Origin: an uncultured bacterium
Lineage (GTDB): Bacteria; Patescibacteriota; Minisyncoccia; Phycocordibacterales; PALSA-1337
NCBI GenBank assembly: GCA_903825415.1
Contig: CAIKAN010000028.1
Coordinates: 3,474-67,473 of the forward strand
Direction: 5' to 3'
DNA length: 64,000 nucleotides
A model generated the notes under the pieces. The model was not told where the DNA came from. It saw nothing but the letters and a program-made list of their open reading frames with translations, and ran no database searches. The translations under genes were made by a program, and so were the position numbers. Of the stretch, positions 1 through 13,830 are shown piece by piece. Each line of letters starts with the position of its first letter. Within the stretch, counting starts at the first letter, position 1.

Positions 1-170
1 TTCGGAGTTATTGTCAGCATTATGAATGCGGCCCTCTCGTTTTTCTACAACGTTTTCAAGTTGGTCCTATACATTTCACCGGGAATCGGAATATTCCTGA
101 TCCTTACCGTAGTTGGCGCATACGGCATAGCTTTAGCCAAAAAGAGGCTTAAGTTACCCCATAATTAGCC
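1..170 (+). CDS. C-terminal fragment of a hydrophobic (membrane) protein running in from upstream of the window
   Basis: Frame 1 is open from position 1 to a TAG at 168-170 and translates to a hydrophobic peptide (…VFKLVLYISPGIGIFLILTVVGAYGIALAKKRL). No homology recognised. Confidence 0.3.
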
Positions 171-183
171 CCTAAATGCCCCT

Positions 184-438
184 GTGTACGCTTTTCAGGC
201 GAGGTTCGGGGGTAATTACAAACATATGATTTCAAAACAAGCGTTAGAAGAATTCAAAGAGATTTGGCGAAAGGAAAACCCTGGCCAAGATATCGACGAT
301 GCGACTGCGATGGATCAGGCAGTAGCTTTGCTTACTCTCATGGATACAGTCTACAGACCAGTGAAGAAAGAATGGTTCGAGAAGTACAAAGATGAAGTCG
401 ACGAAGAAAATAGTGAAGATAAGGGTGGGGTGAAATAA
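184..438 (+). CDS. hypothetical small acidic protein; its 3' end carries box copy 1 of the ATAGTGA…GGGGT repeat
   Basis: 84-aa ORF in the track. No recognisable motif. It ends inside the 24-nt box at 411-434. Confidence 0.3.
   Translation: MYAFQARFGGNYKHMISKQALEEFKEIWRKENPGQDIDDATAMDQAVALLTLMDTVYRPVKKEWFEKYKDEVDEENSEDKGGVK
411..434 (+). repeat. ATAGTGA-N10-GGGTGGGGT box, copy 1 (ATAGTGAAGATAAGGGTGGGGTGA), followed by a GGGT/ACCC hairpin
   Basis: Matches 3393-3416 at 22 of 23 positions. Related copies start at 617, 3473 and 3680. Confidence 0.6.
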
Positions 439-679: not shown

Positions 680-708
680 TTGACAATAGTGCAATATGGG
701 TGTATAAT
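680..708 (+). promoter_or_regulatory. Consensus sigma70-type promoter TTGACA-N17-TATAAT for the DGR target gene; the spacer ATAGTGCAATATGGGTG resembles a degenerate ATAGTGA…GGGTG box
   Basis: TTGACA at 680-685, a 17-nt spacer, TATAAT at 703-708. A 5'-UTR hairpin follows (TCACAGCAGA…TCTGCTGTGA, 746-791), then the RBS AAGGAA before the ATG at 852. Confidence 0.5.
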
Positions 709-851
709 AGTTACATAGTTCTTTGATAGGAAATTGCGAGTTTTATCACAGCAGAAAGTGGCTCATACACATAGGCCATTCTCTGCTGTGATGAAACCAA
801 TGTGGCCAAATCGACAGCGAATCAAACAATGTAAGAAAGGAACAGCTCATC

Positions 852-1583
852 ATGAGTACAGCCTTGAATGAAGTCCCGGGATGGTATATCGAATTCCAAG
901 CGGCGCTTTTGCGCCAAGCTCCTCGCCCGGGGGAGATTGATCAGATGACGGCCGAAGGATGGACCAGCAATCAAAAGGGTCTCAAAAAGAACCTGGCGAA
1001 TTGCCTCCTTCCTCAAACGTCCGTCGTCCCTGTCGAACCGGCCAAGCTCGAGCTTTTGCTCGATCTGGTTGGAACGGTTACAACATCGGCAACCACCAGC
1101 AAGTTCGTCGCCAAAGACAAGTTCGTGGTCAACACCAAGTGCAACGCTCCGGTGAAGATCTCGGCAGTCTGGGACAACTTCACCAGCTGGTTCCTGTCGG
1201 GCGACGGCAAGACCGAAGACCCTATCAGCGAACAGACGCTCCGCTACCACAAATTGCGGAAGTCTTCAGTTGATGGTCCCATCATTACCGAACTGGGTGG
1301 CGAGGAGAAATCCGAAACCACTTTGACGGAAATGTTCTCCTTGATGGAGAAGCAGAAGAATGGTGAAGACGGTGTTCTCCTGAACAACGGCTACGCCAAC
1401 ATCTTCTACATTCGGGACCAGAATGGTGTGCTTCGCGCGGTCTACGTGCGCTGGGACGACGACGGCTGGCGCGTCAGTGCGTTCTCCGTCGAGCTCCCGG
1501 ACGGGTGGGGTGATGGCGACCAGGTGTTCTCTCGCAATTCTGTTCTCGAATCCTCGGAACCTTCGGCTCCGGCGCAAGCCTGA
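852..1583 (+). CDS. DGR target (variable) protein with a C-terminal variable region, presumably a C-type-lectin/FGE-like fold
   Basis: The C-terminal segment …GVLRAVYVRWDDDGWRVSAFSVELPDGWGDGDQVFSR is the nucleotide-level homolog of the downstream template repeat. All mismatches fall at template adenines. Confidence 0.65.
   Translation: MSTALNEVPGWYIEFQAALLRQAPRPGEIDQMTAEGWTSNQKGLKKNLANCLLPQTSVVPVEPAKLELLLDLVGTVTTSATTSKFVAKDKFVVNTKCNAPVKISAVWDNFTSWFLSGDGKTEDPISEQTLRYHKLRKSSVDGPIITELGGEEKSETTLTEMFSLMEKQKNGEDGVLLNNGYANIFYIRDQNGVLRAVYVRWDDDGWRVSAFSVELPDGWGDGDQVFSRNSVLESSEPSAPAQA
1425..1536 (+). repeat. DGR variable region (VR)
   Basis: A roughly 112-nt stretch aligns with 1902-2013. About 17 mismatches, every one at a TR adenine, in the first and second positions of AAC codons. 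The shared 3' end CCAGGTGTTCTCTCG is IMH-like. A GC hairpin (CGGAACC…GGCTCCG) lies at about 1552-1574. Confidence 0.65.
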
Positions 1584-1901
1584 TCCTTTGTCCCTTGGAC
1601 CCTTTGACCCTCGGTCTGCTTCGGCGGATTGGGGGTCAATTTTTTTATATTTAAATTTCTCTTGCTATACTTATTTCCGAAATCATGTGTTACGTGACGG
1701 TCATGGCTTTCACGTCATGGTCTTAGGATATTTTTCTCGAGAGTCATACTGGGTACGCCTTGTATGAGAGTGGGGAAAGTCTCTTCAAAAAAATAACAAG
1801 AATTGGTATATGAGATTAGCGGACTTTGATGTCCCGGATAAAATTCAGCTGGTCATGGTTTGGCTGGCGGTGATATAGATGATCTTGTATACGATAACGC
1901 T

Positions 1902-2013
1902 GGTGTGCTTCGCGCGGTCAACGTGAACTGGAACGACGACGGCTGGAACGTCAATGCGAACTCCGTCGAGAACCCGAACAGGTGGAATGATGGCAACCAG
2001 GTGTTCTCTCGAA
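1902..2013 (+). repeat. DGR template repeat (TR); A-rich with many AAC codons
   Basis: Encodes …NVNWNDDGWNVNANSVENPNRWNDGN; the corresponding positions in the VR differ. ORFs in the track that overlap this repeat on either strand are judged to be translation artefacts. Confidence 0.65.
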
Positions 2014-2034
2014 ACTGTTGGTTTTCTCCTCGGC

Positions 2035-2429
2035 TTAAGGTCGGGGAGTTTTTGCTTGCAAACCCTTCTTCCAACCACCAAGTTGTCGCCCTATTTCCTC
2101 AAGTCTTCCGATTAAGTCCGAGTATGTATCAGTTGGAATAATTTTACTTTCCCATGCGAGTTGCACAAAGAACTTCACAATATCAAGTTTTGTGATGGCT
2201 TTGTTTAATATTGGTATTTTGTGTTCAGGTGGGAGATAAGAAAGACAGAATGTGTATTCAAGTACATCAAGAAAAGCCTGTTCAATTCTGTTTCCAATTC
2301 CATACCGTTCGACTTTCGGAAAATCACGATAGATAGAGAGCCAAAAACGATATGTCTCTTTCGATTTGAGAATTACCTGTGGTAATTCTCGGGGGGGGGG
2401 GTAATATGATCCTTATTAGTATGAGTCAT
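2035..2429 (-). CDS. avd: Avd-like four-helix-bundle protein (accessory variability determinant / 23S-IVS protein family); frame interrupted at the G11 (C11 on this strand) tract
   Basis: The minus-strand frame is open from 2412 to a TAA at 2035-2037. It translates to …ELPQVILKSKETYRFWLSIYRDFPKVERYGIGNRIEQAF…LDIVKFFVQLAWE…LIGRLEEIGRQLGGWKKGL. These match the FPxxERFGL…A.GS…EIGKML.GL family pattern and the Bordetella phage Avd EVGRILGSW. The only upstream ATG (plus coordinates 2429-2427) is out of frame by one nt. A 12-nt tract would give a protein of about 125 aa, MTHTNKDHITPPPPRELPQV…. Confidence 0.55.
2391..2401. repeat. G11/C11 homopolymer tract at the avd/RT junction
   Basis: Eleven consecutive G residues. 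The tract lies 4 nt upstream of the RT ATG at 2406, so it may act as the Shine-Dalgarno element. On the minus strand it lies inside the N-terminal coding region of the avd-like gene. Confidence 0.8.
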
Positions 2430-3416
2430 GAGTATAAGAATATCATATCCATCAAAAATCTATGCGATGCGTGGACCGAATTTATATGTGGCAAGAAATC
2501 TAAAAAGGACGTTGCTGAATTTTCTCTGAATCTCTCTCAAAACATTTTCAAATTGCACGAGGAACTGCGAACAAAAATGTATAGACATGGTGCATACGAA
2601 GCTTTTTCGATAAGTGATCCGAAACCGAGAAGTATTCACAAGGCTACGGTCCGAGATAGATTATTGCATCATGCTATTTACAGGATTTTGTATCCCTATT
2701 TTGATAAAAAGTTTATTTATGATTCCTACTCCTGTCGACAGTTCAAAGGAACACATCGAGCGTTAAATCGGTTCAATGATTTCATGATGAAAGTATCACA
2801 AAGTAATAGTAGGGCATGCTGGGTTCTGAAATGCGATGTAAGAAAGTTTTTCGCATCTATTGATCATGAAAAGCTTATTGAAATATTCAAGCGACATATT
2901 AATGATATGGAAACGATCTGGCTTGTTGAACGCATTGTTGAGAGTTTTCAAAGTACTGGTCCAGGTAAGGGTTTGCCTTTAGGTAACCTGACCTCGCAAC
3001 TTTTGGTAAATGTTTACATGAATGAGTTTGACCAGTTTGTGAAGCACAAGCTCAAAGCTAAGTATTATATTCGGTATGCCGATGACTTCGTTATTATGCA
3101 CCATGAGAAAGATGTGTTGGTGGATATTCTGCCAAAGGTCCAGAGCTTTCTCAGTGAGCAACTAAAGCTGTCTCTTCATCCAGATAAGGTGTTTATAAAG
3201 ACAGCTTCATCAGGCGTAGATTTTCTGGGATGGGTCCATTTTCCGCACCATCGAGTGATACGGATAACAACAAAAAATCGTATGTTCAAGAAAATCAAAG
3301 ATTCTCAAGAAAAGCCGGAAGTCGTCCAGTCGTACCTCGGACTTTTGAGTCATGGTAATGGTTGGAAATTGAAACAGAGAGTTAAGGATAAAATAGTGAA
3401 GACAAGGGTGGGGTAA
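2406..3416 (+). CDS. DGR reverse transcriptase
   Basis: RT motifs are present: N-terminal NLCDAW…GK, motif 4 LPLGNLTSQLL (the DGR-diagnostic [ILV]GxxxSQ), and motif 5 YADD. Size is about 337 aa with no maturase/X domain. The track ORF starts at GTG 2379; ATG 2406 or 2421 is more likely. Confidence 0.85.
   Translation: MILISMSHEYKNIISIKNLCDAWTEFICGKKSKKDVAEFSLNLSQNIFKLHEELRTKMYRHGAYEAFSISDPKPRSIHKATVRDRLLHHAIYRILYPYFDKKFIYDSYSCRQFKGTHRALNRFNDFMMKVSQSNSRACWVLKCDVRKFFASIDHEKLIEIFKRHINDMETIWLVERIVESFQSTGPGKGLPLGNLTSQLLVNVYMNEFDQFVKHKLKAKYYIRYADDFVIMHHEKDVLVDILPKVQSFLSEQLKLSLHPDKVFIKTASSGVDFLGWVHFPHHRVIRITTKNRMFKKIKDSQEKPEVVQSYLGLLSHGNGWKLKQRVKDKIVKTRVG
3393..3416 (+). repeat. ATAGTGA…GGGGTAA box, copy 3 (ATAGTGAAGACAAGGGTGGGGTAA); it overlaps the RT stop codon
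   Basis: Near-identical to copy 1 but read in a different frame. A GGGTAA…TTACCC hairpin follows it. Confidence 0.6.
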
Positions 3417-3472
3417 CTCAATAATTTTACCCGTAATAACGGGAAATTAACGGGAAGTCACTTTTTCGCAAC

Positions 3473-3496
3473 ATAGTGAGTGAGAGTGTGGGGTAA
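3473..3496 (+). repeat. ATAGTGA…GGGGTAA box, copy 4 (ATAGTGAGTGAGAGTGTGGGGTAA)
   Basis: Sequence comparison. Confidence 0.5.
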
Positions 3497-3679
3497 GACT
3501 GATAAAGCAGTTAAAAAGCAGTCTCGCACTCCGTTGTTAATACAACGTGAAAACAACGGCAGTTATTGCCGTTAAAAAACGGTGAAAAAACGGTTAACAC
3601 CCGCCCTTTAAAAAGGGTAAAAAAGGGCGTAGTTATTATAAATACAGATCTGATACAGAGAAGAAATTACTTTTTAGAT

Positions 3680-3703
3680 ATAGTGAGTGCTGGTGTAGGG
3701 TAA
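3680..3703 (+). repeat. ATAGTGA…GGGTAA box, copy 5 (ATAGTGAGTGCTGGTGTAGGGTAA)
   Basis: Sequence comparison. It starts 207 nt after copy 4, mirroring the 206-nt spacing between copies 1 and 2. Confidence 0.5.
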
Positions 3704-3865
3704 CAATCTTTGAAGCTCGGAATGTAGATCGTAGCATCGTCAATTTTTCGGAATATTTCTGTAACTTGAGCGACCACGCGACCCCGAGAAAATGACAGAA
3801 TATTGCGCGATATACCTATTACCTTCTGTGGAGACGGAGAAGAAGTTAGGCTATAATGGCTGATC

Positions 3866-4276
3866 ATGATCTATTTCATCCGTCATGGCGAAAGCGAAGC
3901 CAATCTCAGGGAGGTGTTCGCGGGACAGAAAGACGATTCAGCATTGACCGAAAAAGGCCGTGAACAGGCCAGAGAGGCTGGCAACAAGATCAAGAGCCTC
4001 GGTTTGAATATCGATATCATAGTGAGCTCTCCGCTCATCCGAGCTTTTGATACAGCAAAGATCGTGGCGCAAATCATCGGTTATTCCAAGGAGATCGTCA
4101 TCGATGGCCGCATAACAGAATATGATATGGGAATACTTACAGGTACTCCGGGACATCAGATCACTTCAAAGGCGCTGGTGTCTGCGGAAAATGCCGAAGA
4201 CCCAGAAGCTTTTTGTAGCAGTGGTCGAGCTCATTTGATGGTCTGTGATGTTGTCTATAAACTGACTCTATGCTAA
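3866..4276 (+). CDS. histidine phosphatase (phosphoglycerate-mutase-like) family protein, apparently C-terminally truncated
   Basis: N-terminal FIRHGESEAN (the RHG catalytic motif), …SSPLIRAFDTA and E..MG.LTG are present. At 136 aa it lacks the C-terminal second-His region. Confidence 0.5.
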   Translation: MIYFIRHGESEANLREVFAGQKDDSALTEKGREQAREAGNKIKSLGLNIDIIVSSPLIRAFDTAKIVAQIIGYSKEIVIDGRITEYDMGILTGTPGHQITSKALVSAENAEDPEAFCSSGRAHLMVCDVVYKLTLC

Positions 4277-4724: not shown

Positions 4725-7700
4725 ATGAATAAAACAAAACTCGCGCGGGTGGGGATCGTTGTGCTGGTCGTGGTCCTCTGTGTCGCTGCGTATGCGGTGT
4801 TTCATGGTTTGATAGGGAATCCTTTTCATATCCCAGCCAAGAATTATCAGGCCGCCTATCGTTTGGTCCCCGAGAAAGTCTCGCTATCGGCCGCCATCTC
4901 CGTCTCTTTGCCAACGGGAACGAGCATGCAGAATTTTGATCCGACGAAGCAGGTGATGTTCGACCCAAAGATAGAAGGAAGATGGATCGATGGTAAAGTC
5001 GCCTCGATCATACCGAGCGCGCATGCTGCTGAGGCGGAGCCTGTATATTATTTCCAGCCAAATAAAACGTTGGCTTTGAACAAGCATTATTCGGTGACCT
5101 TGGCGCTCTCTGAAGGGAAGACGATGCAGTCTGATTTTCTGGTCGTGCCTGATCCGGCTGTCATATCGATCTTGCCGCACGATGGAGAAGTTGTGACTGA
5201 TACCAAGATCAGTATCGTCTTCAATCGTCCGATGGTGCCCTTGAGCACGATAGATGAGATGTCACCGACAGATCCGCCCGTTTCTATTTCTCCGAACACG
5301 GCCGGCCGATTCAAGTGGATCAGCACCAACACCTTGCAATTCATATCCGATAGCGGTTTGATCGGATCAGCCAAATACACTGTTTCAGTCAAGGCCGGTC
5401 TCAAATCTCTCGAGGGGCTCGATGTGAAGCCGTTCACTGCATCATTTACGACCCGACATCTCCGATTTTGGACGGATCCTTCTTCGTATAGCGATAGCAA
5501 AGCGACTACCGCAGTAAGAGGCTATAATCAGCCATTCTTGATCAGATTCAATCAGGCCGTCGATCTGGATCGCACCAAAAATTCTGTGACTGTGAATGAT
5601 GGCGAAAAGAATATACCTTTCTCTGTGCAAGAAGGGAAGATCGATGGTCCGCTAGACCCTAGCATCATGGCTATCTATCCAGCTGGCGGAGATAGCGGAG
5701 TTTGGCAGCTACATCGCACTTATACCGTGACCGTCACCCATGCCTATCCAGCATCCCATGGAGATATCAGTCTCGATGCCCCTGGCACATTTTACTTTTC
5801 GGTAGATAATATCTATTCAAGCCTGACCGTTCTCTCACCGAGGACTAGCGATGCCAGTCTAGACCGCTTCGATCCACAGGGACAGCTAGCTATGCATTTT
5901 TATGAAGATATCGATCTGGCCAAAAGCAAGATCACTGGTCCAGCAGTCAACTCTGTAGTTTATGGAGAAAAGTGCAAAGATGATGTCAATACCTCGAAAT
6001 GTACAAAGGTTCCCGATCAGTCTCTTCTCCTTGTCTCTTTCGATGCTGACAAACTGAAGACTGGCGATACGACTGAGGTTGATCTCGATTCGATCGCTTC
6101 AGCCTCAGGAAATTCTCTGAGCTCTACTCGCACACCCATCAGTCTCAGTGTATACGGTCCTTTGGCTATATTTGATGTGAAATCTGGCGATTCTTTGAAT
6201 ACGCTCACAATCTGTTCCAATAATCCTTTGCAGACTGATAGCGCCAAGCAAAAGATCGATTCTACTCCAGTTGTTAAGCCTCTATCTTGGTCGCACTCTT
6301 ACAGATCAGATGTGAATCATTATGGCACGATCAGCCCTTGCGCGGTCGGTCAATTTATCACCTCGGTCTCTGGATATCTATTGCCTCAGGCTGGATATCA
6401 AGGAAAGATCGAAGCAGCCGATGTATTCGGAGGCTCAGCTAGCAAAGCTTTTGATTTCAGTACAAGAGATGCGACTGACAATGATTACGAGCTGCATAAT
6501 TATCAGAGCACGGACATCGTAGCTGTGCCAGGAAAGACCAAGATGACCTTTGCTGAGACATTCTTGCCGAGGATCACATCTACAGTCTGCCGCCTGTCTC
6601 CTTATGATTATTATCGAGTGCGACAAGATTATAAGCTCGACGCCAGAGACTATTGTCAGGAGACTGTTTCCAAAACGATAGAACTGCCGACTGATCAACC
6701 AGGCAGAGTCTTCTTTGGTGTCGATATCGCCGATTATTTTCCGGATCAGATCGGGAATTATGCCGTGCTCCTATCCAGCCCATTGTTGGCGGTGAATCGC
6801 AATAATTCATGGAGATATTCGACGGTCTCATATATCTCAGTGACGAATCTGGTCGTGACACAGAAGAGCATCAACCCTTCTTTGACTGCTGGTTATAATG
6901 GCGCCATTTTGAGAGGCGATCAGATCAATAAGCTGCAGAATATGTATTGGGTCATCGATGCTCGCACGCAAGGTCCGGTGGCAGGAGCATCTGTCAAAAC
7001 ATATAAAGATGGCAGTGTCGTGGAAACAGCTACGACCAATGATCAAGGCCTGGCATATCTCGTCCCGATCGCTGATCCTGAGATGACCGTCGTCTCGTTA
7101 GGCGGCGATAATGCTGTCATGGCTGGCGGCGCAACGGTTCTCAACTATGCTGAGAGCGCGAGCAATGCCCAAAAGACTTTCCTGTATACGGATAAACCGA
7201 TCTATCGACCTGGCCAAGAAGTAGATATCAAGGGCCTTTTACGAGCGGGGTATGACGGCTATTATGAAGCCCCGTCGGCTACTCCTATGACTCTCACTGT
7301 AACTGACCCTTCGAATGCAGCCGTGAAGCAAGTCCAATTGACACCCAACGGCTTCGGATCGATCAGTACTATTCTCGATCTCGACCCTTCAGCGAAGCTG
7401 GGAACATATAGCGCCTGTATCAAATATCAATGCGCCTATTTTGACGTCTTGGATTATGCCCCGGCAGCATTCAAGGTGGACATGACGACGGCTAAGGATG
7501 AGTATAATAAAGGCGATGATCCGGCTATCCAAGTCAGTTCCAATTATTATTTTGGCATCCCCGTCTCTAATGTGGCGTTGAATTATCATGTAAGCAGCCA
7601 ATATTATTATTTCGACAAGTACACCAAGGAATATCTCAACTTCAATAATCTAAGCGATGATATGGGGCAGGGTTATTATTATGGCGATCGCTATATAAGC

Positions 7701-10700
7701 AGCGGTCAAGCGACGCTCGATCAGAATGGTCAGACGACGATCAAGCCGACGGGCTCAGTCTTCTCAGGCACCGGCCAAGACCAGAGCAAGATCGTAGTGA
7801 TCGATTCGACGGTCAAGAATCAAGAAGGGAGGAGCATATCGGCGCAGAAATCATTCATCATGCATGCCGCACCGATATATATCGGAAGCAAGATCGTAGA
7901 GCCATTCATCGGCAAAGGAGAAGCGATCTCGCTCAAATTGAAGACTGTCGATACCGCTGCTAACCCAAGATCGCTCGGAGTCAAGGTCAATCTGTATCAC
8001 GTCTATTGGACGAGCACCAAGAACGGCAATGGCAATATGATCTGGGATCAAAAGCGCGATCTAGTCAAAGCCATTGACGCCAGCACGGATTCCAATGGCG
8101 ATGGCAGCCTTGCTCTGCCGCAAGTCGATGAAGGAGAATATGCCGTCGATGTCACCTCAGGGCAGGATGGCGCGGCAGTCGGCAGCCGATCTTGGTTCTA
8201 TGTCTATGGAGACCAGAATGTCTCTGTGAGGGGCAGCGACGATACATCGCTTGAAATGGTCTTGAATGATACCACGGTCAAGAGTGGCACTACGGCAGAA
8301 GTCCTGATCAAAATGCCGGAGGGGAAAGGCAAGGCGCTAGTGACGATCGAGCGAGGCAGCATCTATAGTTACAAGATCATAGATCTTACTGGGTCACTGA
8401 CTCGTTTTCAATTTCCCGTTGAGCAGAGATATTATCCCAATGTCTATGTGAGCGTCGTAGCCTATGCTCCGAACAGGGCAGTGCGCTTCGGCAGTCAGAA
8501 TATAAAGGTAGATAGCGATCAAAAGAAGCTCGATCTGACCATCTCTCCCGATAAGCAGCAATATAGCCCTGGCGATAAGGTGACATTGAATATCCGCTCT
8601 ACTGATTCCAGCGGCAAGCCTGTCATCGCTGATGTCTCATTAGCCGTTGTCGAGATGAATGTGCTCGCGCTTCGAGGCAATCCTCACAAGGACCCGCTCC
8701 AATATTTTTACGGGAATATCCCGCTCACAATTGGAACAGCGTCGAATTACAAGAGCTTGCTCAAGGATATACCTTGGCAAAGCAGTGACGGCAAGGGAGG
8801 GGGAGGTGGAGACCTAGACAAGCAGAAGAGCCGCGGCAATTTCAAGGAAGTGGCCTATTGGAATGCTGATATCATGACGGATCAAGGCGGCAATGCTGTC
8901 CTCTCATTCGTTTTGCCGGACAATCTGACGACTTGGCAAGCAGAGGCAGTCGGCATCACACAGGATACGAGCCTCGGAGTGGCTTATAAGGAATTCATCT
9001 CGAGCAAAGAGCTGATGATCGTTCCTCTCGAGCCGCGATTCGTATTGCCTGGCGATAAGTTCTCTCTGGGGGCGACTATCTTCAATAATAGCCGAAATGA
9101 TTTCAAGGGGAGCGTCGCTTTGACGGTCCCATCTACACTAGATTCTTCAAAAGCCTCTCTGAAGAGCGACATGAGCTTGAAGGCGGGGGAATCAAAAGAT
9201 GTATATTTTGATCTGTCTGTGCCTGAAACAGCTCAGCCTGGAGATATCCCTTATACTATCGAGGCCTCTGGATCAGGCTTATCGGATTCGGTCGTGGACA
9301 CGATCAAAGTCAATCCGAGCAGCGCATACGAGGTGACTGCGACGGCCGGTCAAACCGATTCTTCCGCCAGCGAATCAATATATGTTCCTACTACCATAAT
9401 CCCGAATATGGGCGAATTGTCTGTCAGAAGCTCGGCCACTCTAGCTATGTATCTGCCTCAGGCTTTGAATTATATGATCGATTATCCTTATGATTGCACT
9501 GAACAGATGGGGAGCCAGATCCAAGCGATAGCGCTCATGGATAAGGCACATCTGCTTTTCACCAACGGGACTTCTACTTATACAGGGAAGATCTTGTTCG
9601 ATGGAAAGGAACAAAAAGCTCAGGATATCATCCAGAGCCGATTGCAATCGATATATAACAGGCAGAGCTCCGATGGAGGATTCAGGCTCTGGTCCGAAAG
9701 CTATAGTTCGAGCTTATTCGCGACCGAGGAAGCTTTGAAGGCTTTTGACACCCTGAAGAGCGCTGGCTATAGCATCGATGAGACTGCTTGGGATAAGGGC
9801 GCAGATTATCTGTACAGTCAATATTCACATTCGAATATAGTATATTCAGACGAAGAGATCATTGCTTTTGCGGAAGCCCTATACACGAGGCCGCGATATG
9901 TCTCTGATCTATCCTTCGCGAAAGATTTCAATTCTGCCGTAGATCGTATCCTTAAAAATGAAACTGTCTCTACCGGCACCTTGCTCTCCATTAGCGGATT
10001 GTCGCATCGATACGGATTCTTGGCTTCGCAATCAAAAAAGATCGATCTCACGCTTGAGAACAGGGTGATAGTCGATTCTCGAGGCAGTTTCCTTGATGCT
10101 TCTAGTGGCGGCTATCGCTATGAGACTGCTATATCTAATACAGCTCGCTATATAGAATTGCTCTCCATGGAAAAGCAAAATCAGGCCGAATTGCCAAATC
10201 TATTGCGCTGGCTGACCCTGTCGCGCTCGAAAGACGGCTCATGGGACTCGACAGAGAATAATCTGGCTGTGATCAAGGGTTTCACCCAGTATCTCGATTG
10301 GCAGCCTGAGACATCTGCTGTCTTCATGGAAACCAATTCCTTGAATGGGGAGACGATCGATACCTTCTCTTATAAGCCTGAAAATATCCTGACCACGATC
10401 TCGAAGACTCTGCCTATGAGCCGATTGCAGTTCGGTGGCATGAATACGGTGGCCTTCGCCAGATCGGCCGATGGAGCCGCTTCAAAAGGCAAGATCTATT
10501 ACGACCTTAGCTTGAAGTATTATCTTCCGGCCGATACTATGGGACCGCGTGATGAGGGCTTTGCTATCTCGCATGGATTCTATGCTCTATCCGATACCAA
10601 AGGGCAGACCCCCATCAACCAAGCGCATGTTGGAGATGTTCTGCGGGAGCATATCGAATTCACCGTGCCGGTGACCAGGAATGATGTATCGATCGAAGAC

Positions 10701-11039
10701 TTCATCCCTGCAGGAATGGAGATAGTCGATACTAGTCTAGCGACTGAAGATAAGACCCTTTCTAACGACGTCGTTCGTTCGGCGTATGAAGATCAAGATA
10801 TTTCCAACAGTGAACAGGATGTGCAAGATTCGACATTCTGGCCAGACCATCAGGAGTGGAAGGATGATCGAGCTTTTCTCTATAAAGAGAGCCTTAGCCC
10901 AGGCACCTATTCATTCGATTATAAAGTGAGAGCGCTCGTTCCGGGCAAATATCTGCGCCTGCCAAGCCAGATCTCTGAATTATACACGCCTGAGAATTTC
11001 GGTCGCACAGGAGCAGGATCATTTACTATCGATAAATAG
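4725..11039 (+). CDS. alpha-2-macroglobulin family protein with a thioester, N-terminally membrane-anchored
   Basis: 2104 aa. N-terminal TM helix. Thioester motif DYPYDCTEQMG (CxEQ). Large beta-rich body. Confidence 0.85.
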   Translation: MNKTKLARVGIVVLVVVLCVAAYAVFHGLIGNPFHIPAKNYQAAYRLVPEKVSLSAAISVSLPTGTSMQNFDPTKQVMFDPKIEGRWIDGKVASIIPSAHAAEAEPVYYFQPNKTLALNKHYSVTLALSEGKTMQSDFLVVPDPAVISILPHDGEVVTDTKISIVFNRPMVPLSTIDEMSPTDPPVSISPNTAGRFKWISTNTLQFISDSGLIGSAKYTVSVKAGLKSLEGLDVKPFTASFTTRHLRFWTDPSSYSDSKATTAVRGYNQPFLIRFNQAVDLDRTKNSVTVNDGEKNIPFSVQEGKIDGPLDPSIMAIYPAGGDSGVWQLHRTYTVTVTHAYPASHGDISLDAPGTFYFSVDNIYSSLTVLSPRTSDASLDRFDPQGQLAMHFYEDIDLAKSKITGPAVNSVVYGEKCKDDVNTSKCTKVPDQSLLLVSFDADKLKTGDTTEVDLDSIASASGNSLSSTRTPISLSVYGPLAIFDVKSGDSLNTLTICSNNPLQTDSAKQKIDSTPVVKPLSWSHSYRSDVNHYGTISPCAVGQFITSVSGYLLPQAGYQGKIEAADVFGGSASKAFDFSTRDATDNDYELHNYQSTDIVAVPGKTKMTFAETFLPRITSTVCRLSPYDYYRVRQDYKLDARDYCQETVSKTIELPTDQPGRVFFGVDIADYFPDQIGNYAVLLSSPLLAVNRNNSWRYSTVSYISVTNLVVTQKSINPSLTAGYNGAILRGDQINKLQNMYWVIDARTQGPVAGASVKTYKDGSVVETATTNDQGLAYLVPIADPEMTVVSLGGDNAVMAGGATVLNYAESASNAQKTFLYTDKPIYRPGQEVDIKGLLRAGYDGYYEAPSATPMTLTVTDPSNAAVKQVQLTPNGFGSISTILDLDPSAKLGTYSACIKYQCAYFDVLDYAPAAFKVDMTTAKDEYNKGDDPAIQVSSNYYFGIPVSNVALNYHVSSQYYYFDKYTKEYLNFNNLSDDMGQGYYYGDRYISSGQATLDQNGQTTIKPTGSVFSGTGQDQSKIVVIDSTVKNQEGRSISAQKSFIMHAAPIYIGSKIVEPFIGKGEAISLKLKTVDTAANPRSLGVKVNLYHVYWTSTKNGNGNMIWDQKRDLVKAIDASTDSNGDGSLALPQVDEGEYAVDVTSGQDGAAVGSRSWFYVYGDQNVSVRGSDDTSLEMVLNDTTVKSGTTAEVLIKMPEGKGKALVTIERGSIYSYKIIDLTGSLTRFQFPVEQRYYPNVYVSVVAYAPNRAVRFGSQNIKVDSDQKKLDLTISPDKQQYSPGDKVTLNIRSTDSSGKPVIADVSLAVVEMNVLALRGNPHKDPLQYFYGNIPLTIGTASNYKSLLKDIPWQSSDGKGGGGGDLDKQKSRGNFKEVAYWNADIMTDQGGNAVLSFVLPDNLTTWQAEAVGITQDTSLGVAYKEFISSKELMIVPLEPRFVLPGDKFSLGATIFNNSRNDFKGSVALTVPSTLDSSKASLKSDMSLKAGESKDVYFDLSVPETAQPGDIPYTIEASGSGLSDSVVDTIKVNPSSAYEVTATAGQTDSSASESIYVPTTIIPNMGELSVRSSATLAMYLPQALNYMIDYPYDCTEQMGSQIQAIALMDKAHLLFTNGTSTYTGKILFDGKEQKAQDIIQSRLQSIYNRQSSDGGFRLWSESYSSSLFATEEALKAFDTLKSAGYSIDETAWDKGADYLYSQYSHSNIVYSDEEIIAFAEALYTRPRYVSDLSFAKDFNSAVDRILKNETVSTGTLLSISGLSHRYGFLASQSKKIDLTLENRVIVDSRGSFLDASSGGYRYETAISNTARYIELLSMEKQNQAELPNLLRWLTLSRSKDGSWDSTENNLAVIKGFTQYLDWQPETSAVFMETNSLNGETIDTFSYKPENILTTISKTLPMSRLQFGGMNTVAFARSADGAASKGKIYYDLSLKYYLPADTMGPRDEGFAISHGFYALSDTKGQTPINQAHVGDVLREHIEFTVPVTRNDVSIEDFIPAGMEIVDTSLATEDKTLSNDVVRSAYEDQDISNSEQDVQDSTFWPDHQEWKDDRAFLYKESLSPGTYSFDYKVRALVPGKYLRLPSQISELYTPENFGRTGAGSFTIDK

Positions 11040-12881
11040 GTCTCTGGCTTTCTCGATATCATCGCCGGATATCTCGTAGGCAGAGTTTGTCGTCCCTCCG
11101 ATCGGGCGGATCTTATCAAAAGCGAAAGGAGTCTTCTTGTTGTATGTAGAATGCGACATGAGCTCCATGACCTGACTCCAAATCTCGCCGGCGCCGCTCT
11201 GTCCGGACAATCTCTTTGTAGATTTGTTATCGGCATTGCCGACCCATACTCCTACCAAGAAATCTGGCGTGAATCCTATAACCCAACTATCATGATAATC
11301 GTCGGATGTCCCAGTTTTCAGCGCGTAATTATCTAGAGGAATATTCAGATCGCTCCTGTAGCCGAATTGATCCGTAGCGAGATGGCGGTCGGATAGGATC
11401 TTTGTCACTAGCTGGGTGTATTGTGGTTCTATGACTTGTCTTGAGCTTTGCGGAAAGAAGCTGGAATTCAAACTTTGATCGGAGAATAGATGCATTGAAT
11501 TCAGTTTTCCTTGATTGGGGAAGATGGTATAGAGATGAGCCAGATCCGGAAGGGTCATATCGATGGTACCGAGAGCGGCGCCTATGCCGAGAGCATGCAC
11601 TTTTTTCGTATCTGCATATCCAAGGGTGCTCAAAAAATCGGCAAAATGATCTACTCCTACAAAAGAGAGCGTCTTGACTGCGGGAATATTTATGCTGTTA
11701 TCTAGAGCATACGCTGCTGTGATCCTGCCGTGGAATTTCCCATCATAATTCCTAAGATAGAACGATTGGCCATCGTCAGTCTTGTACTCATACTCCTCGT
11801 CGTCGATCAGGGTATATGGCCTGGCTCCCATCTCAAAAGCTTTAGCATAGACTAGAGGCTTTATGGTCGAAGCGACTTGGCGCGGTTCTTGGAGCATGTT
11901 GATCTGTTGGCCATAGCTAATGCCTGTCGGGTCCGGGCTTCCGATGAAAGTCAGGATCTCATTCTCAGGCAGCTTCATGATCACGATAGCCATATTGTGC
12001 GCATCGCGATCTGATAGAGAGGGGACTATTGATCCGAGGATCTGCCGAACATTCGTGGTTAATTTTGAATCGATCGAGGTCTTGATCTCTTTGGGCATAT
12101 CTTTCATCGACTGGATATATGGCCTGAGCTCGAAGCTATCTTCCTTTTCTTGAAATGAAGACAGATTCTGTTTGACTGTATCTGGACTAGCGAAGCTCTG
12201 ATCTACTGTTTGTACGCCGAGCTGCTTTGCCAGGATTCTCGACTTGCGGATGTTGCTCTCGGATAAGGGATTATCGAAACTGGGATCGCTCAATGTTCCT
12301 AATAATTGGACTATCTCCTCTGTCGAGAGCTTCTCAGGAGATTTATTGAAATATGCCTTACTAGCCGTTTTCAGACCTTGAATATGATTGCCGAAATAGG
12401 CCGTATTGCAGTAGGCGAGGAGGATGGAGGATTTCGGCATATAGAGGTCATACATCATCGCATCCATTGTCTCAATCGCTTTATTAGAAATGGTTCGCCT
12501 AGTCTCGTTCCCAAGCAGCATCTTGGCGAGCTGCTGATCGATGGTGCTAGCGCTGCGGCGATTCCCGATCCCCATTTTAGTGAGGATGAGCTGTGTGGTC
12601 CCAATCGGATTCATGCCAGGATGAGAGTAGAAATGCTTGTCTTCTTTGCTCAGCAAAAGCTCAGCGAATCTTTGCGGTACGCTCGTCGCGAATATCGAAT
12701 AGTTGCCTCTGCTATTCGGCAAGATCCAGATCGGTTCGCCGCTCCTATCAACGACGACTGTCGACTGAATATCTTCATACGCTCTATTGAGCCCTCGGCT
12801 GATCATGGCGGTGAGGACTATGAGAATGAAAATGATGAGCAGGCTTGCTTTCAGTACGGTTTTTTTCAGGGAAATCTTCAT
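11019..12881 (-). CDS. pbpC: class A penicillin-binding protein (PBP1C-like transglycosylase/transpeptidase)
   Basis: N-terminal TM. Glycosyltransferase motifs EDKHFYSHPG and RSASTIDQQ. Transpeptidase motifs STIKP (SxxK) and KTGT. Convergent with the A2M gene, overlapping its end by 21 nt. Confidence 0.85.
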   Translation of the reverse strand: MKISLKKTVLKASLLIIFILIVLTAMISRGLNRAYEDIQSTVVVDRSGEPIWILPNSRGNYSIFATSVPQRFAELLLSKEDKHFYSHPGMNPIGTTQLILTKMGIGNRRSASTIDQQLAKMLLGNETRRTISNKAIETMDAMMYDLYMPKSSILLAYCNTAYFGNHIQGLKTASKAYFNKSPEKLSTEEIVQLLGTLSDPSFDNPLSESNIRKSRILAKQLGVQTVDQSFASPDTVKQNLSSFQEKEDSFELRPYIQSMKDMPKEIKTSIDSKLTTNVRQILGSIVPSLSDRDAHNMAIVIMKLPENEILTFIGSPDPTGISYGQQINMLQEPRQVASTIKPLVYAKAFEMGARPYTLIDDEEYEYKTDDGQSFYLRNYDGKFHGRITAAYALDNSINIPAVKTLSFVGVDHFADFLSTLGYADTKKVHALGIGAALGTIDMTLPDLAHLYTIFPNQGKLNSMHLFSDQSLNSSFFPQSSRQVIEPQYTQLVTKILSDRHLATDQFGYRSDLNIPLDNYALKTGTSDDYHDSWVIGFTPDFLVGVWVGNADNKSTKRLSGQSGAGEIWSQVMELMSHSTYNKKTPFAFDKIRPIGGTTNSAYEISGDDIEKARDLFIDSK

Positions 12882-12990: not shown

Positions 12991-13830
12991 ATGCTAGTAA
13001 GTGCTATACTGTCTCCCATGAGTTTTTTCAAATTCAACAAAGAAATAAAGACGGAGGATTTGAAACTTTCAGATTACGATCAAATCTGGACAAAGTTTTG
13101 TTTTCTGGATGAGACAGGGAGTCTGAACAATCTAACAGACCCGTTTTTCAGCGTCGGCATCATTAAATTGAGTCAGCCGTATTATTTGATGAATAAGATC
13201 CTCTATGAGAGAAACAAGAGGAATTTTCATGATGAGATGCATTTCAACAAATTATCGAGGAAGAATATTGAATTTGCGAAGTTTGCGTTAGGAGCATTTT
13301 TTGATGCGAAAAGCACACATTTTTATTCATATTCTATCGATAAGGAAGGGGAATATTTCAAGAAAGAATTTGGCAACGATCCATGGCAGGCGTATGAGCA
13401 ATTGACGATGCGATTGATTGAAGCCGCGCTAGCGGAAAAAGAGATTCTTATCTTACTTGCTGATCATGTCACAACGCCGAAAGATGTTCGATTCGAAGTG
13501 AATGTAAAGAAGAATGTTAACAGTAAGCTGGGCAGATTGGCTTTGGCTGGGGTGTGTCGAATCAATTCGCGCTCTAATGATTTGTTACAGTTAGTTGACC
13601 TCATAATTGGAGCAATCAGTTATGACTTGAAAATCAAGACAGGTGCGATAGAGGGTAATAGTCGCTGTAAAAGAGAATTGCTCAATTGTCTGAAAAAGAA
13701 TCTAGGGACTGATACTCTTATAAATGGATTCAAAAATAGGAATTTCAATATATTTGTCGATAAGGATATGAAGCAAAGGTTGCCGTTGCCGCCAAATACT
13801 GAGGTAAATGAAAAAGAGCAATCATCCTAA
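12991..13830 (+). CDS. hypothetical protein, DUF3800-like (FLDETGS motif)
   Basis: N-terminal …CFLDETGSL… resembles the DUF3800 'FIDESG' signature. Nothing else recognised. Confidence 0.35.
   Translation: MLVSAILSPMSFFKFNKEIKTEDLKLSDYDQIWTKFCFLDETGSLNNLTDPFFSVGIIKLSQPYYLMNKILYERNKRNFHDEMHFNKLSRKNIEFAKFALGAFFDAKSTHFYSYSIDKEGEYFKKEFGNDPWQAYEQLTMRLIEAALAEKEILILLADHVTTPKDVRFEVNVKKNVNSKLGRLALAGVCRINSRSNDLLQLVDLIIGAISYDLKIKTGAIEGNSRCKRELLNCLKKNLGTDTLINGFKNRNFNIFVDKDMKQRLPLPPNTEVNEKEQSS

What the first reader, a model, noticed from the sequence alone, without database searches (positions are those of the whole stretch)
852..3416. Complete diversity-generating retroelement: target gene VR differs from TR only at adenines, with a DGR-type RT
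Nucleotides 1425-1536, at the 3' end of CDS 852-1583, align with 1902-2013. About 17 mismatches fall exclusively at template-repeat adenines, at AAC codon positions 1 and 2 (TR protein NVNWNDDGWNVNANSVENPNRWNDGN versus VR YVRWDDDGWRVSAFSVELPDGWGDGD). This is the signature of mutagenic retrohoming. The downstream RT (2406-3416) carries LPLGNLTSQ, the DGR-specific [ILV]GxxxSQ replacement of the group II QG motif, and YADD, with no maturase domain. The shared 3' ends (CCAGGTGTTCTCTCG) and a GC hairpin just after the VR (about 1552-1574) fit the IMH/hairpin architecture. The target has its own consensus promoter at 680-708 and a 5'-UTR hairpin, but no signal peptide, so the diversified protein may be cytoplasmic.
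Basis: seen in the sequence. Interest (0 to 1): 0.75.

Follow-up and report, generated by a model that had tools for sequence, protein, structure and literature searches.

The report
Active diversity-generating retroelement, Patescibacteria type
This is a real, complete and recently active diversity-generating retroelement of the layout already known from Candidate Phyla Radiation bacteria; it rewrites 17 codons of a small protein of unknown function, and its template sits in a large structured RNA that I did not find described in the papers and libraries I could search.

Summary
VR 1424-1537 and TR 1901-2014 differ at 17 of 114 positions, all at TR adenines (chance about 7e-13). The RT (2406-3416) is closest to the Bordetella phage DGR RT. 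That gives the TR-(avd)-RT 'B3' layout reported for 90% of CPR DGRs.

About 40 related Patescibacteria loci share the layout and the adenine-only pattern. Near-identical cassettes have the same TR but VRs that differ only at TR-adenine sites, so the element was active recently.

Three further features emerged:
- A covariation-supported structured leader RNA of about 225 nt lies upstream of TR.
- A stem-loop plus U-tract follows TR in 38 of 38 loci.
- A G8-11 run of variable length sits at the avd/RT junction, and avd has no canonical start codon.

The claimed hairpin after the VR is not supported.

Verdict: a new member of a known kind, of moderate interest.

The parts
680..708 (+). Promoter-like site of the target gene (TTGACA-17-TATAAT)
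   Evidence: 12 of 12 consensus match. This is a consensus match only; transcription was not shown.
740..797 (+). Long hairpin in the 5' UTR of the target gene
   Evidence: 23-nt arms, 87% complementary. Fold energy -16.8 kcal/mol, z = -5.9. Function unknown.
852..1583 (+). Target (variable protein) gene, 243 aa, acidic (pI 4.8). It has a helical N-terminal module (about residues 1-55), a linker, and a conserved domain (about 70-230) that carries the VR
1424..1537 (+). Variable repeat (VR), codons 192-229 of the target
   Evidence: 17 mismatches to TR, all at TR adenines. It differs from near-identical cassettes only at TR-adenine sites.
1519..1541 (+). Constant 3' end of VR plus the VR-specific flank (…TTCTCTCG|CAATTC), the IMH-like boundary
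   Evidence: 16 nt identical to TR. In related loci every VR is followed by CAATTC-like sequence and every TR by AAACT-like sequence. The role in directionality is inferred by analogy with BPP-1.
1604..1648 (+). Intrinsic-terminator-like hairpin and T-run after the target gene
   Evidence: 16-pair stem plus T7. Compensatory changes across 31 loci (helices 1-2). Homology of orphan target loci to this window ends here.
1663..1671 (+). Conserved extended -10 element (TGCTATACT), the putative promoter of the TR RNA
   Evidence: Listed as promoter-like with TG. TTG(N)TATA(C/A)T is conserved across 31 loci in alignment A5. The start site near 1678 is inferred.
1679..1724 (+). Leader RNA domain A (nested stems)
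   Evidence: Helices 3-4: 16 pairs, 12 with compensatory changes, 91-96% of cells paired. Part of a sub-threshold match to Rfam RT-9 at 1690-1801.
1733..1777 (+). Leader RNA domain B (stem, conserved GAGAG internal loop, stem)
   Evidence: Helices 5-6: 15 pairs, 13 with compensatory changes.
1806..1892 (+). Leader RNA domain C. A 12-bp closing stem (1806-1817 with 1881-1892) ends 8 nt before TR and encloses two inner stems (1821-1834; 1848-1868)
   Evidence: Helices 7-9: 22 pairs, 18 with compensatory changes, 95-99% of cells paired. Invariant G-U pairs show that the + strand is the folded strand.
1901..2014 (+). Template repeat (TR), 29 adenines, 11 AAY codons
   Evidence: Identical (0 of 114 differences) in cassettes L010 and L022 whose VRs differ.
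2026..2053 (+). Stem-loop (10 bp, CUCC…GGAG) plus U5, starting 10 nt after the TR-specific flank …CGAAAC
   Evidence: Terminator-like; z = -2.4. A stem was found in all 38 loci. In 34 it is a 6-12 bp stem starting 8-12 nt after …GAAAC, nearly always CUC…GAG followed by UUUU (the scan picked a different stem in 4 loci). There are 30 distinct stem sequences. It matches the 'Avd-binding stem-loop just downstream of TR' predicted for 207 DGRs in bioRxiv 10.1101/2023.10.23.563531.
2035..2373 (-). avd (accessory variability determinant), at least 112 aa, basic (pI 9.4); start codon uncertain
   Evidence: Open frame on the minus strand. Pfam bAvd 46.8 bits (cut-off 40). NCBIfam DivGenRetAVD 60 bits (below its cut-off of 80). 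Conserved in about 35 loci in the same position and orientation. No ATG, GTG or TTG before residue 66.
2368..2401 (.). Hairpin (GAGAATTACC-TGT-GGTAATTCTC, 2368-2390) followed by a G11 run (2391-2401) in the 32-nt gap between the avd and RT starts
   Evidence: z = -5.4. A G-run of 8-11 is present in 19 of 23 loci and a hairpin in 13 of those, with compensatory variants. Run length differs between near-identical cassettes. L070 has a 32-nt TC dinucleotide repeat, (TC)16, instead.
2406..3416 (+). DGR reverse transcriptase, 336 aa
   Evidence: RVT_1. Best PDB match is bRT 8ub7, E = 2.3e-39, with KPR (the bRT R74 equivalent), LPLGNLTSQ (aligned to bRT IPIGSLTSQ) and YADD.

Best explanation
This is a chromosomal, recently active diversity-generating retroelement of the Patescibacteria (CPR) class. 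Its layout is target(VR) – TR – avd (reverse strand) – RT.

Proposed mechanism:
1. A non-coding RNA is transcribed from a conserved extended -10 promoter near 1663-1671.
2. That RNA consists of a structured leader of about 225 nt in three domains, the 114-nt TR, and a stem-loop with a U-tract.
3. The RT, together with Avd, copies the TR into cDNA and misincorporates opposite the 29 template adenines.
4. The cDNA replaces the VR at the 3' end of the target gene. The invariant 3' block and the VR-specific flank set the boundary and the direction of transfer.
5. This recodes 17 codons, giving about 10^16 possible peptides. The codons lie on two beta-strands and a loop of a small acidic protein that has no signal peptide. 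Its conserved domain is a remote C-type-lectin-like fold, and its N-terminal helical module is exchangeable.

Related genomes show that one TR can also serve paralogous targets elsewhere in the genome.

Shown here: the repeat pair and its adenine bias, the RT type, Avd, turnover of the VR between strains with an unchanged TR, and the RNA structures (by covariation).

Inferred from the Bordetella phage paradigm: cis-primed cDNA synthesis, Avd binding to the post-TR stem-loop, the leader acting as a scaffold for the RT-Avd complex, and the closing stem of domain C acting as a stop for reverse transcription.

The ligand and biological role of the target are unknown.
For: - Adenine-only VR/TR mismatches, chance about 7e-13.
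- A DGR-type RT and Avd above the Pfam cut-off.
- The same gene order in about 35 of 80 related loci, and the same adenine bias in about 40.
- Against L010 the TR is identical, and all 15 VR differences lie at TR-adenine sites. Flanking sequence differs by only 1-2.5%.
- Strain variants of the protein differ almost only at AAY-coded positions.
- A trans target sits on another contig of one genome (L011 TR against L007). Two loci, L058 and L062, have two targets each.
- Leader RNA: 64 pairs, 52 with compensatory changes; 93.8% of cells paired against 41-48% when partners are slid; 0 of 500 shuffles reach the observed score.
- A post-TR stem-loop in 38 of 38 loci.
- CPR DGRs form their own clade, and their targets lack recognisable domains (PMC8144416).
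- The genomic context is chromosomal.
Against: - avd has no canonical start codon. With the 11-base run its frame has no start candidate upstream. Gene callers skip it in public contigs. Avd may therefore not be made from this allele.
- No partner strand for the TR 3' end was found, so the priming step is unexplained.
- If the post-TR hairpin with its U-run terminates transcription, RT expression needs read-through or an unidentified promoter.
- There are no reads, RNA or cDNA data from this organism.
Confidence: 0.88

Rival explanations
1. The cassette in this genome is intact in sequence but currently switched off. The 11-base homopolymer puts the avd reading frame out of register with any start codon. 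No Avd is made, and the VR is frozen until the run changes length.
For: With runs of 11 or 8 bases there is no in-frame start between the upstream stop and the conserved Avd helix 1. With 10 bases ATA or ATC (GTG in L002) come into frame. Loci without the run have an ATG 8-21 codons upstream. Run length differs among cassettes that are 95-98% identical: 11, 10 and 8. In L070 a 32-nt TC dinucleotide repeat, (TC)16, replaces the run.
Against: An ATT codon at 2373 gives a protein that covers positions 14-106 of the 107-position Pfam bAvd profile. Most loci have ATT, ATC or GTG at or next to that position. About 40% of the G-run loci examined here would be 'off'. Homopolymer lengths in metagenome assemblies are error-prone, and L010 comes from a hybrid assembly. 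The VR has clearly turned over in this lineage.
Confidence: 0.2
2. The conserved structured RNA upstream of TR is not a scaffold for reverse transcription. It is a separate cis-regulatory leader or small RNA, for example a sensor that controls transcription into TR and RT.
For: It begins right after a conserved promoter. It shows a sub-threshold resemblance to Rfam RT-9, whose function is unassigned. No pairing between the leader and the TR 3' end is supported by covariation.
Against: The closing stem of domain C always ends 8-10 nt before TR. In the Bordetella phage element, RNA on both sides of TR is essential and wraps the RT-Avd complex (bioRxiv 10.1101/2023.10.23.563531). Homology of orphan targets that lack an RT stops at the terminator, before the leader.
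Confidence: 0.15
3. The VR/TR pair is an ordinary partial gene duplication, and the neighbouring RT belongs to a group II intron or retron that is unrelated to it.
For: The RT gives sub-threshold matches to group II, retron and DRT models.
Against: All 17 mismatches are at template adenines. The same bias is seen in about 40 independent loci. All non-DGR RT models score far below their cut-offs. The best solved relative is the DGR RT. No Rfam group II intron or retron RNA was found.
Confidence: 0.01

Closest known systems
Bordetella phage BPP-1 DGR (mtd – avd – TR – brt)
   Same: Adenine-specific transfer from TR to VR. The RT has the [I/L/V]GxxxSQ motif and the fingertip Arg (KPR), and aligns to bRT at E = 2.3e-39. 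There is a basic Avd accessory protein. A stem-loop of about 9-10 bp follows directly after TR. An invariant 3' block is shared by VR and TR, with diverging flanks.
   Different: avd is inverted and lies between TR and RT, so no 140-nt non-coding spacer can follow TR. The conserved structured RNA lies upstream of TR instead. No GC hairpin lies next to the VR. The element is chromosomal and the target is a small non-phage protein without a signal peptide. The priming site is unknown.
CPR/Patescibacteria DGRs: architecture B3 of Wu et al. 2018 (PMC5758913) and clade 2 of Roux et al. 2021 (PMC8144416)
   Same: The gene order TR-(avd)-RT. The host group. Targets without transmembrane or known domains. 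Frequent multiple or remote targets.
   Different: Nothing in the layout differs. I could not check whether this VR class is one of the 'UVR1-6' classes, because the supplements are not held. I did not find the leader RNA, the post-TR hairpin statistics or the homopolymer at the avd/RT junction described in the papers I could read.
C-type-lectin-fold DGR variable proteins (Mtd, TvpA 2y3c, TaqVP, archaeal AvpA)
Rfam RT-9 RNA (RF03080) and the RT-1 to RT-19 motifs of Weinberg et al. 2017 (PMC5737381)
   Same: These are structured RNA motifs found next to RT genes. RT-10 is the BPP-1 spacer, and the authors speculated that others belong to DGRs. Window 1690-1801 aligns to the whole RT-9 model.
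   Different: The score is 30.5 bits against a gathering score of 46.1. None of 12 related loci reaches the threshold. RT-9 covers only domain A and part of domain B of the leader described here.

Membership tests
Diversity-generating retroelement | A TR/VR repeat pair whose differences fall (almost) only at template adenines | tested here: met
   17 of 17 mismatches at TR adenines and 0 of 85 at other bases. The same holds in about 40 related loci.
Diversity-generating retroelement | A reverse transcriptase of the DGR clade with the [I/L/V]GxxxSQ motif in place of the group II QG motif | tested here: met
   LPLGNLTSQ aligns to bRT IPIGSLTSQ. The best PDB hit is bRT at E = 2.3e-39, against about 1e-21 for others. 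No DGR-RT profile library was available, and no phylogeny was made.
Diversity-generating retroelement | VR at the 3' end of a protein-coding target, and a TR that is not part of a conserved gene | tested here: met
   The VR covers codons 192-229 of 243. The TR lies in the non-coding RNA between the terminator and avd.
Diversity-generating retroelement | The VR varies between strains at adenine-matched sites while the TR stays constant | tested here: met
   Against L010 and L022 the TR shows 0 of 114 differences, while the VR shows 15 and 18 differences, all at TR-adenine sites. Cluster members show the same pattern.
Diversity-generating retroelement | Accessory protein Avd (present in most DGRs, not all) | tested here: met
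   Pfam bAvd 46.8 bits against a cut-off of 40. NCBIfam DivGenRetAVD 60 bits, below its cut-off of 80. The start codon is unresolved.
Diversity-generating retroelement | IMH/IMH* elements at the 3' ends of VR and TR that set directionality | tested here: inconclusive
   A shared 16-nt block is followed by the VR-specific flank CAATTC or the TR-specific flank AAACT, conserved across loci. The function is not testable here.
Diversity-generating retroelement | A GC-rich hairpin or cruciform just downstream of the VR (a BPP-1-type target recognition element) | tested here: not met
   1552-1574 folds no better than shuffles (z = -0.72). The small stem at 1542-1560 is not conserved in distant loci. 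This is not a universal defining feature of DGRs.
Diversity-generating retroelement | Adenine-mutagenic cDNA synthesis and retrohoming | not testable with these tools
   This needs cDNA sequencing or reconstitution.
CPR DGR architecture B3 (Wu et al. 2018) | Core order TR – avd on the reverse strand – RT | tested here: met
   TR 1901-2014 (+), avd 2373-2035 (-), RT 2406-3416 (+). Definition taken from PMC5758913.
C-type-lectin-fold variable protein | The VR-bearing domain adopts the C-type-lectin fold | tested here: inconclusive
Rfam RT-9 RNA (RF03080) | Score at or above the family's gathering threshold (46.1 bits) | tested here: not met
   30.5 bits, E = 0.005-0.009. There is no hit in 12 related loci at the gathering score.
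Group II intron RT/maturase | The equivalog model TIGR04416 above its cut-off, a maturase (X) domain, and intron RNA domains | tested here: not met
   151 bits against a cut-off of 300. Only RVT_1 is found in Pfam. There is no group II intron RNA in Rfam searches.

The most novel reading that the evidence does not exclude
Mutagenesis by this class of DGR may be phase-variable. A hypermutable simple repeat sits exactly where the avd and RT genes meet head to head. It is G8-11 in most loci and (TC)16 in one. Its length would decide whether the avd reading frame is joined to a start codon. Slipped-strand changes would then switch Avd production on and off, and with it rewriting of the target, within a population. 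The allele in this window (11 bases) would be an 'off' or low state.
Probability: 0.2. Interest if true: 0.65.

Novelty: new member of a known kind. Interest (0 to 1): 0.42.

Why it matters
DGRs are abundant in Candidate Phyla Radiation bacteria, yet almost nothing is known about how that class works or what its targets do. This locus, together with about 40 relatives, gives a well-defined and apparently active example.

- It has a compact 3.4-kb cassette.
- Its target family is very large (more than 3,700 clusters at 50% identity) and has no annotation.
- A confident structure model suggests a very divergent C-type-lectin-like scaffold.
- Its RNA anatomy differs from the Bordetella phage paradigm. 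The conserved structured RNA lies upstream of the template, because avd occupies the downstream side on the other strand.

This makes it testable how B3-type DGRs position and prime their template, and whether a simple repeat gates their activity. For genome annotation, the avd gene is missed by gene callers in the three public contigs examined, and no Pfam model matches the target family.

Tried and rejected
- The first structure prediction used 37 close homologues and was unusable (pLDDT 49). It was repeated with 140 diverse sequences.
- Foldseek against PDB and BFVD gave nothing significant. AFDB50 was not installed.
- Pfam, NCBIfam and PDB sequence or profile searches of the target found nothing.
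- A scan of the whole 64 kb for a second VR, treating TR adenines as wildcards, found none.
- RNAalifold on a MAFFT alignment of the post-TR hairpin under-called it because of indels in the loop. It was replaced by a per-locus stem scan.
- A search for a strand that pairs with the TR 3' end (a candidate primer) in the leader or downstream found no consistent position across loci. The GAGAG loop of domain B is complementary to CUCUC in TR, but both are invariant, and the variants that exist do not compensate.
- I considered recoding or an alternative genetic code for avd. It is not needed, because the frame has no internal stop.
- I considered that the 24-nt flanking motif is a conserved RT C-terminus. 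This was rejected because other RTs of the family end differently.
- Exact look-ups of the RT protein (both the 336-aa and the 345-aa forms) found no record.
- Paul et al. 2017 could not be read. The supplements of Wu et al. 2018 are not held.
Full report
**The observation**

Window 1424-1537 aligns without gaps to 1901-2014, at an offset of 477 over 114 nt. The two copies differ at 17 positions. At every one the downstream copy has A, and none of its 85 non-A positions differs. With 29 A in that copy, the chance of this is about 7e-13. The upstream copy is the last part of ORF 852-1583, codons 192-229. Fifteen changes are in AAY codons, one is in an AGG codon, and one is silent in a CGA codon. 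No further copy exists in the 64 kb, even when the template adenines are treated as wildcards. The claimed GC hairpin at 1552-1574 folds no better than shuffled sequence (z = -0.72). It is not conserved in distant relatives.

**The proteins**

ORF 2406-3416 matches Pfam RVT_1 only. Its best match among all solved structures is chain 8ub7_A, at E = 2.3e-39 over nearly the full length. The residue numbering of that chain (R74, I181, Q187, D215/D216) is that of the Bordetella phage DGR RT described in bioRxiv 10.1101/2023.10.23.563531. Group II-type and retron-type RTs follow at about 1e-21. All NCBIfam group II, retron and DRT models score far below their cut-offs. KPR, LPLGNLTSQ and YADD align to the bRT residues that contact the incoming nucleotide.

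The frame 2373-2035 is open for at least 112 codons and encodes a basic protein (pI 9.4). It matches Pfam bAvd above the gathering score (46.8 against 40). It also matches NCBIfam DivGenRetAVD, but below that model's cut-off (60 against 80). The order TR – avd (reverse strand) – RT is architecture B3 of Wu et al. 2018. That architecture accounts for 90% of their CPR DGR set and is nearly absent elsewhere (PMC5758913).

**Relatives**

The target has 857 homologues in the 90%-clustered collection. All are unnamed, none has a Pfam domain, and the named sources are Candidatus Paceibacterota and allied groups. A profile search of 1.84 billion cluster representatives finds 3,736 clusters at E ≤ 1e-3 and 1,034 at E ≤ 1e-30. 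One of these is a 926-aa protein with five copies of the domain.

Eighty loci were fetched from species-representative genomes. Nearly all are titled as Patescibacteria-type MAGs; a few carry other labels. About 35 have target(+), TR(+), avd(-), RT(+) in the same order and spacing. About 40 have a VR/TR pair whose mismatches fall almost only at template adenines. Two loci have two targets for one TR. In one MAG the TR on one contig matches an orphan target on another contig, with 1 non-A mismatch and 19 adenine-site mismatches. This family therefore often diversifies several paralogues, including remote ones.

**Evidence of recent activity**

L010 is 98% identical to window 1086-3791. Its TR is identical (0 of 114 differences). 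Its VR differs at 15 positions, all of them TR-adenine sites, while the rest of the cassette differs by 1-2.5%. L022 gives the same result: an identical TR, and 18 VR differences, all at adenine sites. The 90%-identity cluster that holds the window's own protein contains variants from other samples. These differ by 1-5 residues outside the VR and at nearly every AAY-coded position inside it.

**The target protein**

No sequence or profile method links it to any known family. With a diverse 140-sequence alignment, AlphaFold gives a confident model (mean pLDDT 88, above 95 over residues 70-220). The model has two N-terminal helices, a linker, and an alpha/beta domain whose last three strands and connecting loop carry the variable residues.

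There is no signal peptide or hydrophobic segment, as reported for CPR targets generally. The first 60-80 residues are exchangeable. Homologues carry at least four unrelated N-terminal modules on the same C-terminal domain. In L010 the segment corresponding to window 766-1085 is replaced, inside an otherwise 94-98% identical cassette.

**RNA anatomy**

The intergenic region between the target's terminator (1604-1639 plus a T-run) and the TR is conserved in DNA even where the target gene is no longer alignable by blastn. An alignment of 31 loci shows the following elements:
- a conserved extended -10 element (TGCTATACT, 1663-1671);
- domain A, 1679-1724;
- domain B, 1733-1777, with a conserved GAGAG internal loop;
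- an A-rich linker with an invariant GAATTGG;
- domain C, 1806-1892, whose 12-bp closing stem ends 8 nt before TR.

Of 64 predicted pairs, 52 show compensatory changes. 93.8% of cells are standard pairs, against 41-48% when partners are slid by 1-3 columns. The covariation score is 0.617 against 0.12-0.17 for the slid controls, and no shuffle out of 500 reaches the observed values. Several invariant G-U pairs show that the + strand is the folded strand.

A stem-loop was found after the TR-specific flank …CGAAAC in all 38 loci examined. In 34 of them it has 6-12 bp and starts 8-12 nt after that flank. It nearly always opens CUC and closes GAG, followed by UUUU. There are 30 distinct stem sequences. 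In the window it lies at 2026-2048 plus U5. It corresponds to the 'Avd-binding stem-loop just downstream of TR', typically 9 bp, that Handa et al. predicted in 207 of 278 Avd-containing DGRs, CPR ones among them. It also looks like an intrinsic terminator.

Rfam has no family matching this region at its gathering thresholds. The only near-miss is RT-9 (30.5 against 46.1 bits) over 1690-1801. RT-9 is one of the motifs that Weinberg et al. 2017 found next to RT genes and suspected of belonging to DGRs. Twelve related loci also stay below threshold.

In the Bordetella phage element the essential flanking RNA is mostly the 140-nt spacer downstream of TR. It supplies the primer and, by pairing with sequence upstream of TR, a stop duplex. 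Here the downstream side is antisense avd, and the conserved structure lies upstream. By analogy I propose that the leader is the scaffold for the RT-Avd complex and that the closing stem of domain C is the stop. The primer remains unidentified: no consistent partner for the TR 3' end was found.

**The avd/RT junction**

The two genes start head to head, 32 nt apart. The gap holds a 10-bp hairpin (2368-2390, z = -5.4) and a run of 11 G (2391-2401). A G-run of 8-11 is present in 19 of 23 loci examined. The hairpin is present in 13 of those, with compensatory variants. One locus has a 32-nt TC dinucleotide repeat, (TC)16, in the same place. Run length differs among cassettes that are 95-98% identical: 11 in the window, L022 and L085; 10 in L086; 8 in L010.

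avd has no ATG, GTG or TTG before residue 66. With 11 or 8 bases its frame is closed upstream without any start candidate. With 10 bases ATA or ATC (GTG in L002) come into frame. The three loci without a repeat have an ATG 8-21 codons upstream. Gene callers skip avd in public contigs.

Three possibilities remain open:
- translation starts at ATT 2373, inside the hairpin, which gives an almost full-length Avd domain;
- the repeat is a slippage-based switch;
- the run lengths in assemblies are unreliable.

I cannot decide between these.

**Context and mobility**

The rest of the window is ordinary chromosome: an alpha-2-macroglobulin gene with a PBP1C-like partner, a peroxiredoxin, a GH130 enzyme and others. 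Cassettes 95-98% identical to this one sit next to different genes in other genomes. In one of them the neighbour is a large serine recombinase gene. A 24-nt motif occurs five times in the window, only around the cassette. Its significance is unexplained.

**Verdict**

As a kind of system it is already known: a CPR DGR with the B3 layout. The additions from this analysis are the missed avd gene, direct evidence of recent activity, the size and probable fold of the target family, a covariation-supported leader RNA that I did not find described in the literature and libraries I could search, and an unexplained simple repeat at the avd start.

Noticed in passing
window 410-433, 617-640, 3393-3416, 3473-3496, 3680-3703: A 24-nt motif ATAGTGA-N8-GTNGGGT(A/G)A occurs five times (0.11 expected by chance). 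All copies are on the + strand and all lie around the DGR cassette. Each reads …IVxxxVG-stop in one frame. The copies at 617 and 3393 lie near the two ends of the stretch conserved with other cassettes (about 699-3390). Short TTACGGT/ACGGT repeats lie between the copies. The same five copies occur in L085. Other RTs of the family do not end with this motif.
   Followed up: partly
window 154-438; L022:8401-8678; L085:1203-3087: A small acidic ORF (184-438, 84 aa, no family match) lies upstream of the target here and in L010. Its homologue in L022 lies downstream of the RT, as if the unit were circularly permuted. In L085 a large serine recombinase gene (Resolvase/Recombinase/Zn_ribbon_recom) sits just upstream of the same unit. 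Near-identical cassettes have different neighbours in L085, L086 and L087. This suggests the cassette moves between genomes or sites.
   Followed up: partly
window 766-1085 versus L010: Inside a cassette otherwise 94-98% identical to L010, the 5' UTR end and the first 78 or so codons of the target are replaced by unrelated sequence. Across the family, at least four unrelated N-terminal helical modules are joined to the same VR-bearing domain.
   Followed up: partly
window 1584-1645 and the same position in related loci: Degenerate CTTTGACC / CTTGGACC-like units repeat two to four times between the target stop codon and the terminator in nearly all loci. Homology of orphan targets without an RT extends through this stretch and stops at the terminator. 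It may be a cis element for target recognition.
   Followed up: no
P0227 (926 aa) and P0228 (379 aa): Some members of the target family carry five or two tandem copies of the VR-bearing domain in one protein.
   Followed up: no
L081-L084 (contigs of 1.5-1.8 kb): The exact target protein of this window occurs in several other metagenome assemblies. There it is found only on short contigs that are 100% identical to the window and end at window positions 1742-1747 or 2266. This looks like assembly breakage around this cassette.
   Followed up: no
window 3866-4276: A histidine-phosphatase-family ORF of only 136 aa matches positions 1-96 of the 194-position profile. It is probably truncated, and it lies just right of the cassette.
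   Followed up: no
window 4725-12881 and 12991-13830: A 2,104-aa bacterial alpha-2-macroglobulin gene converges on a transglycosylase/transpeptidase (PBP1C-like) gene, the known A2M-PBP1C pairing. A DUF3800 protein gene is next to them.
   Followed up: no
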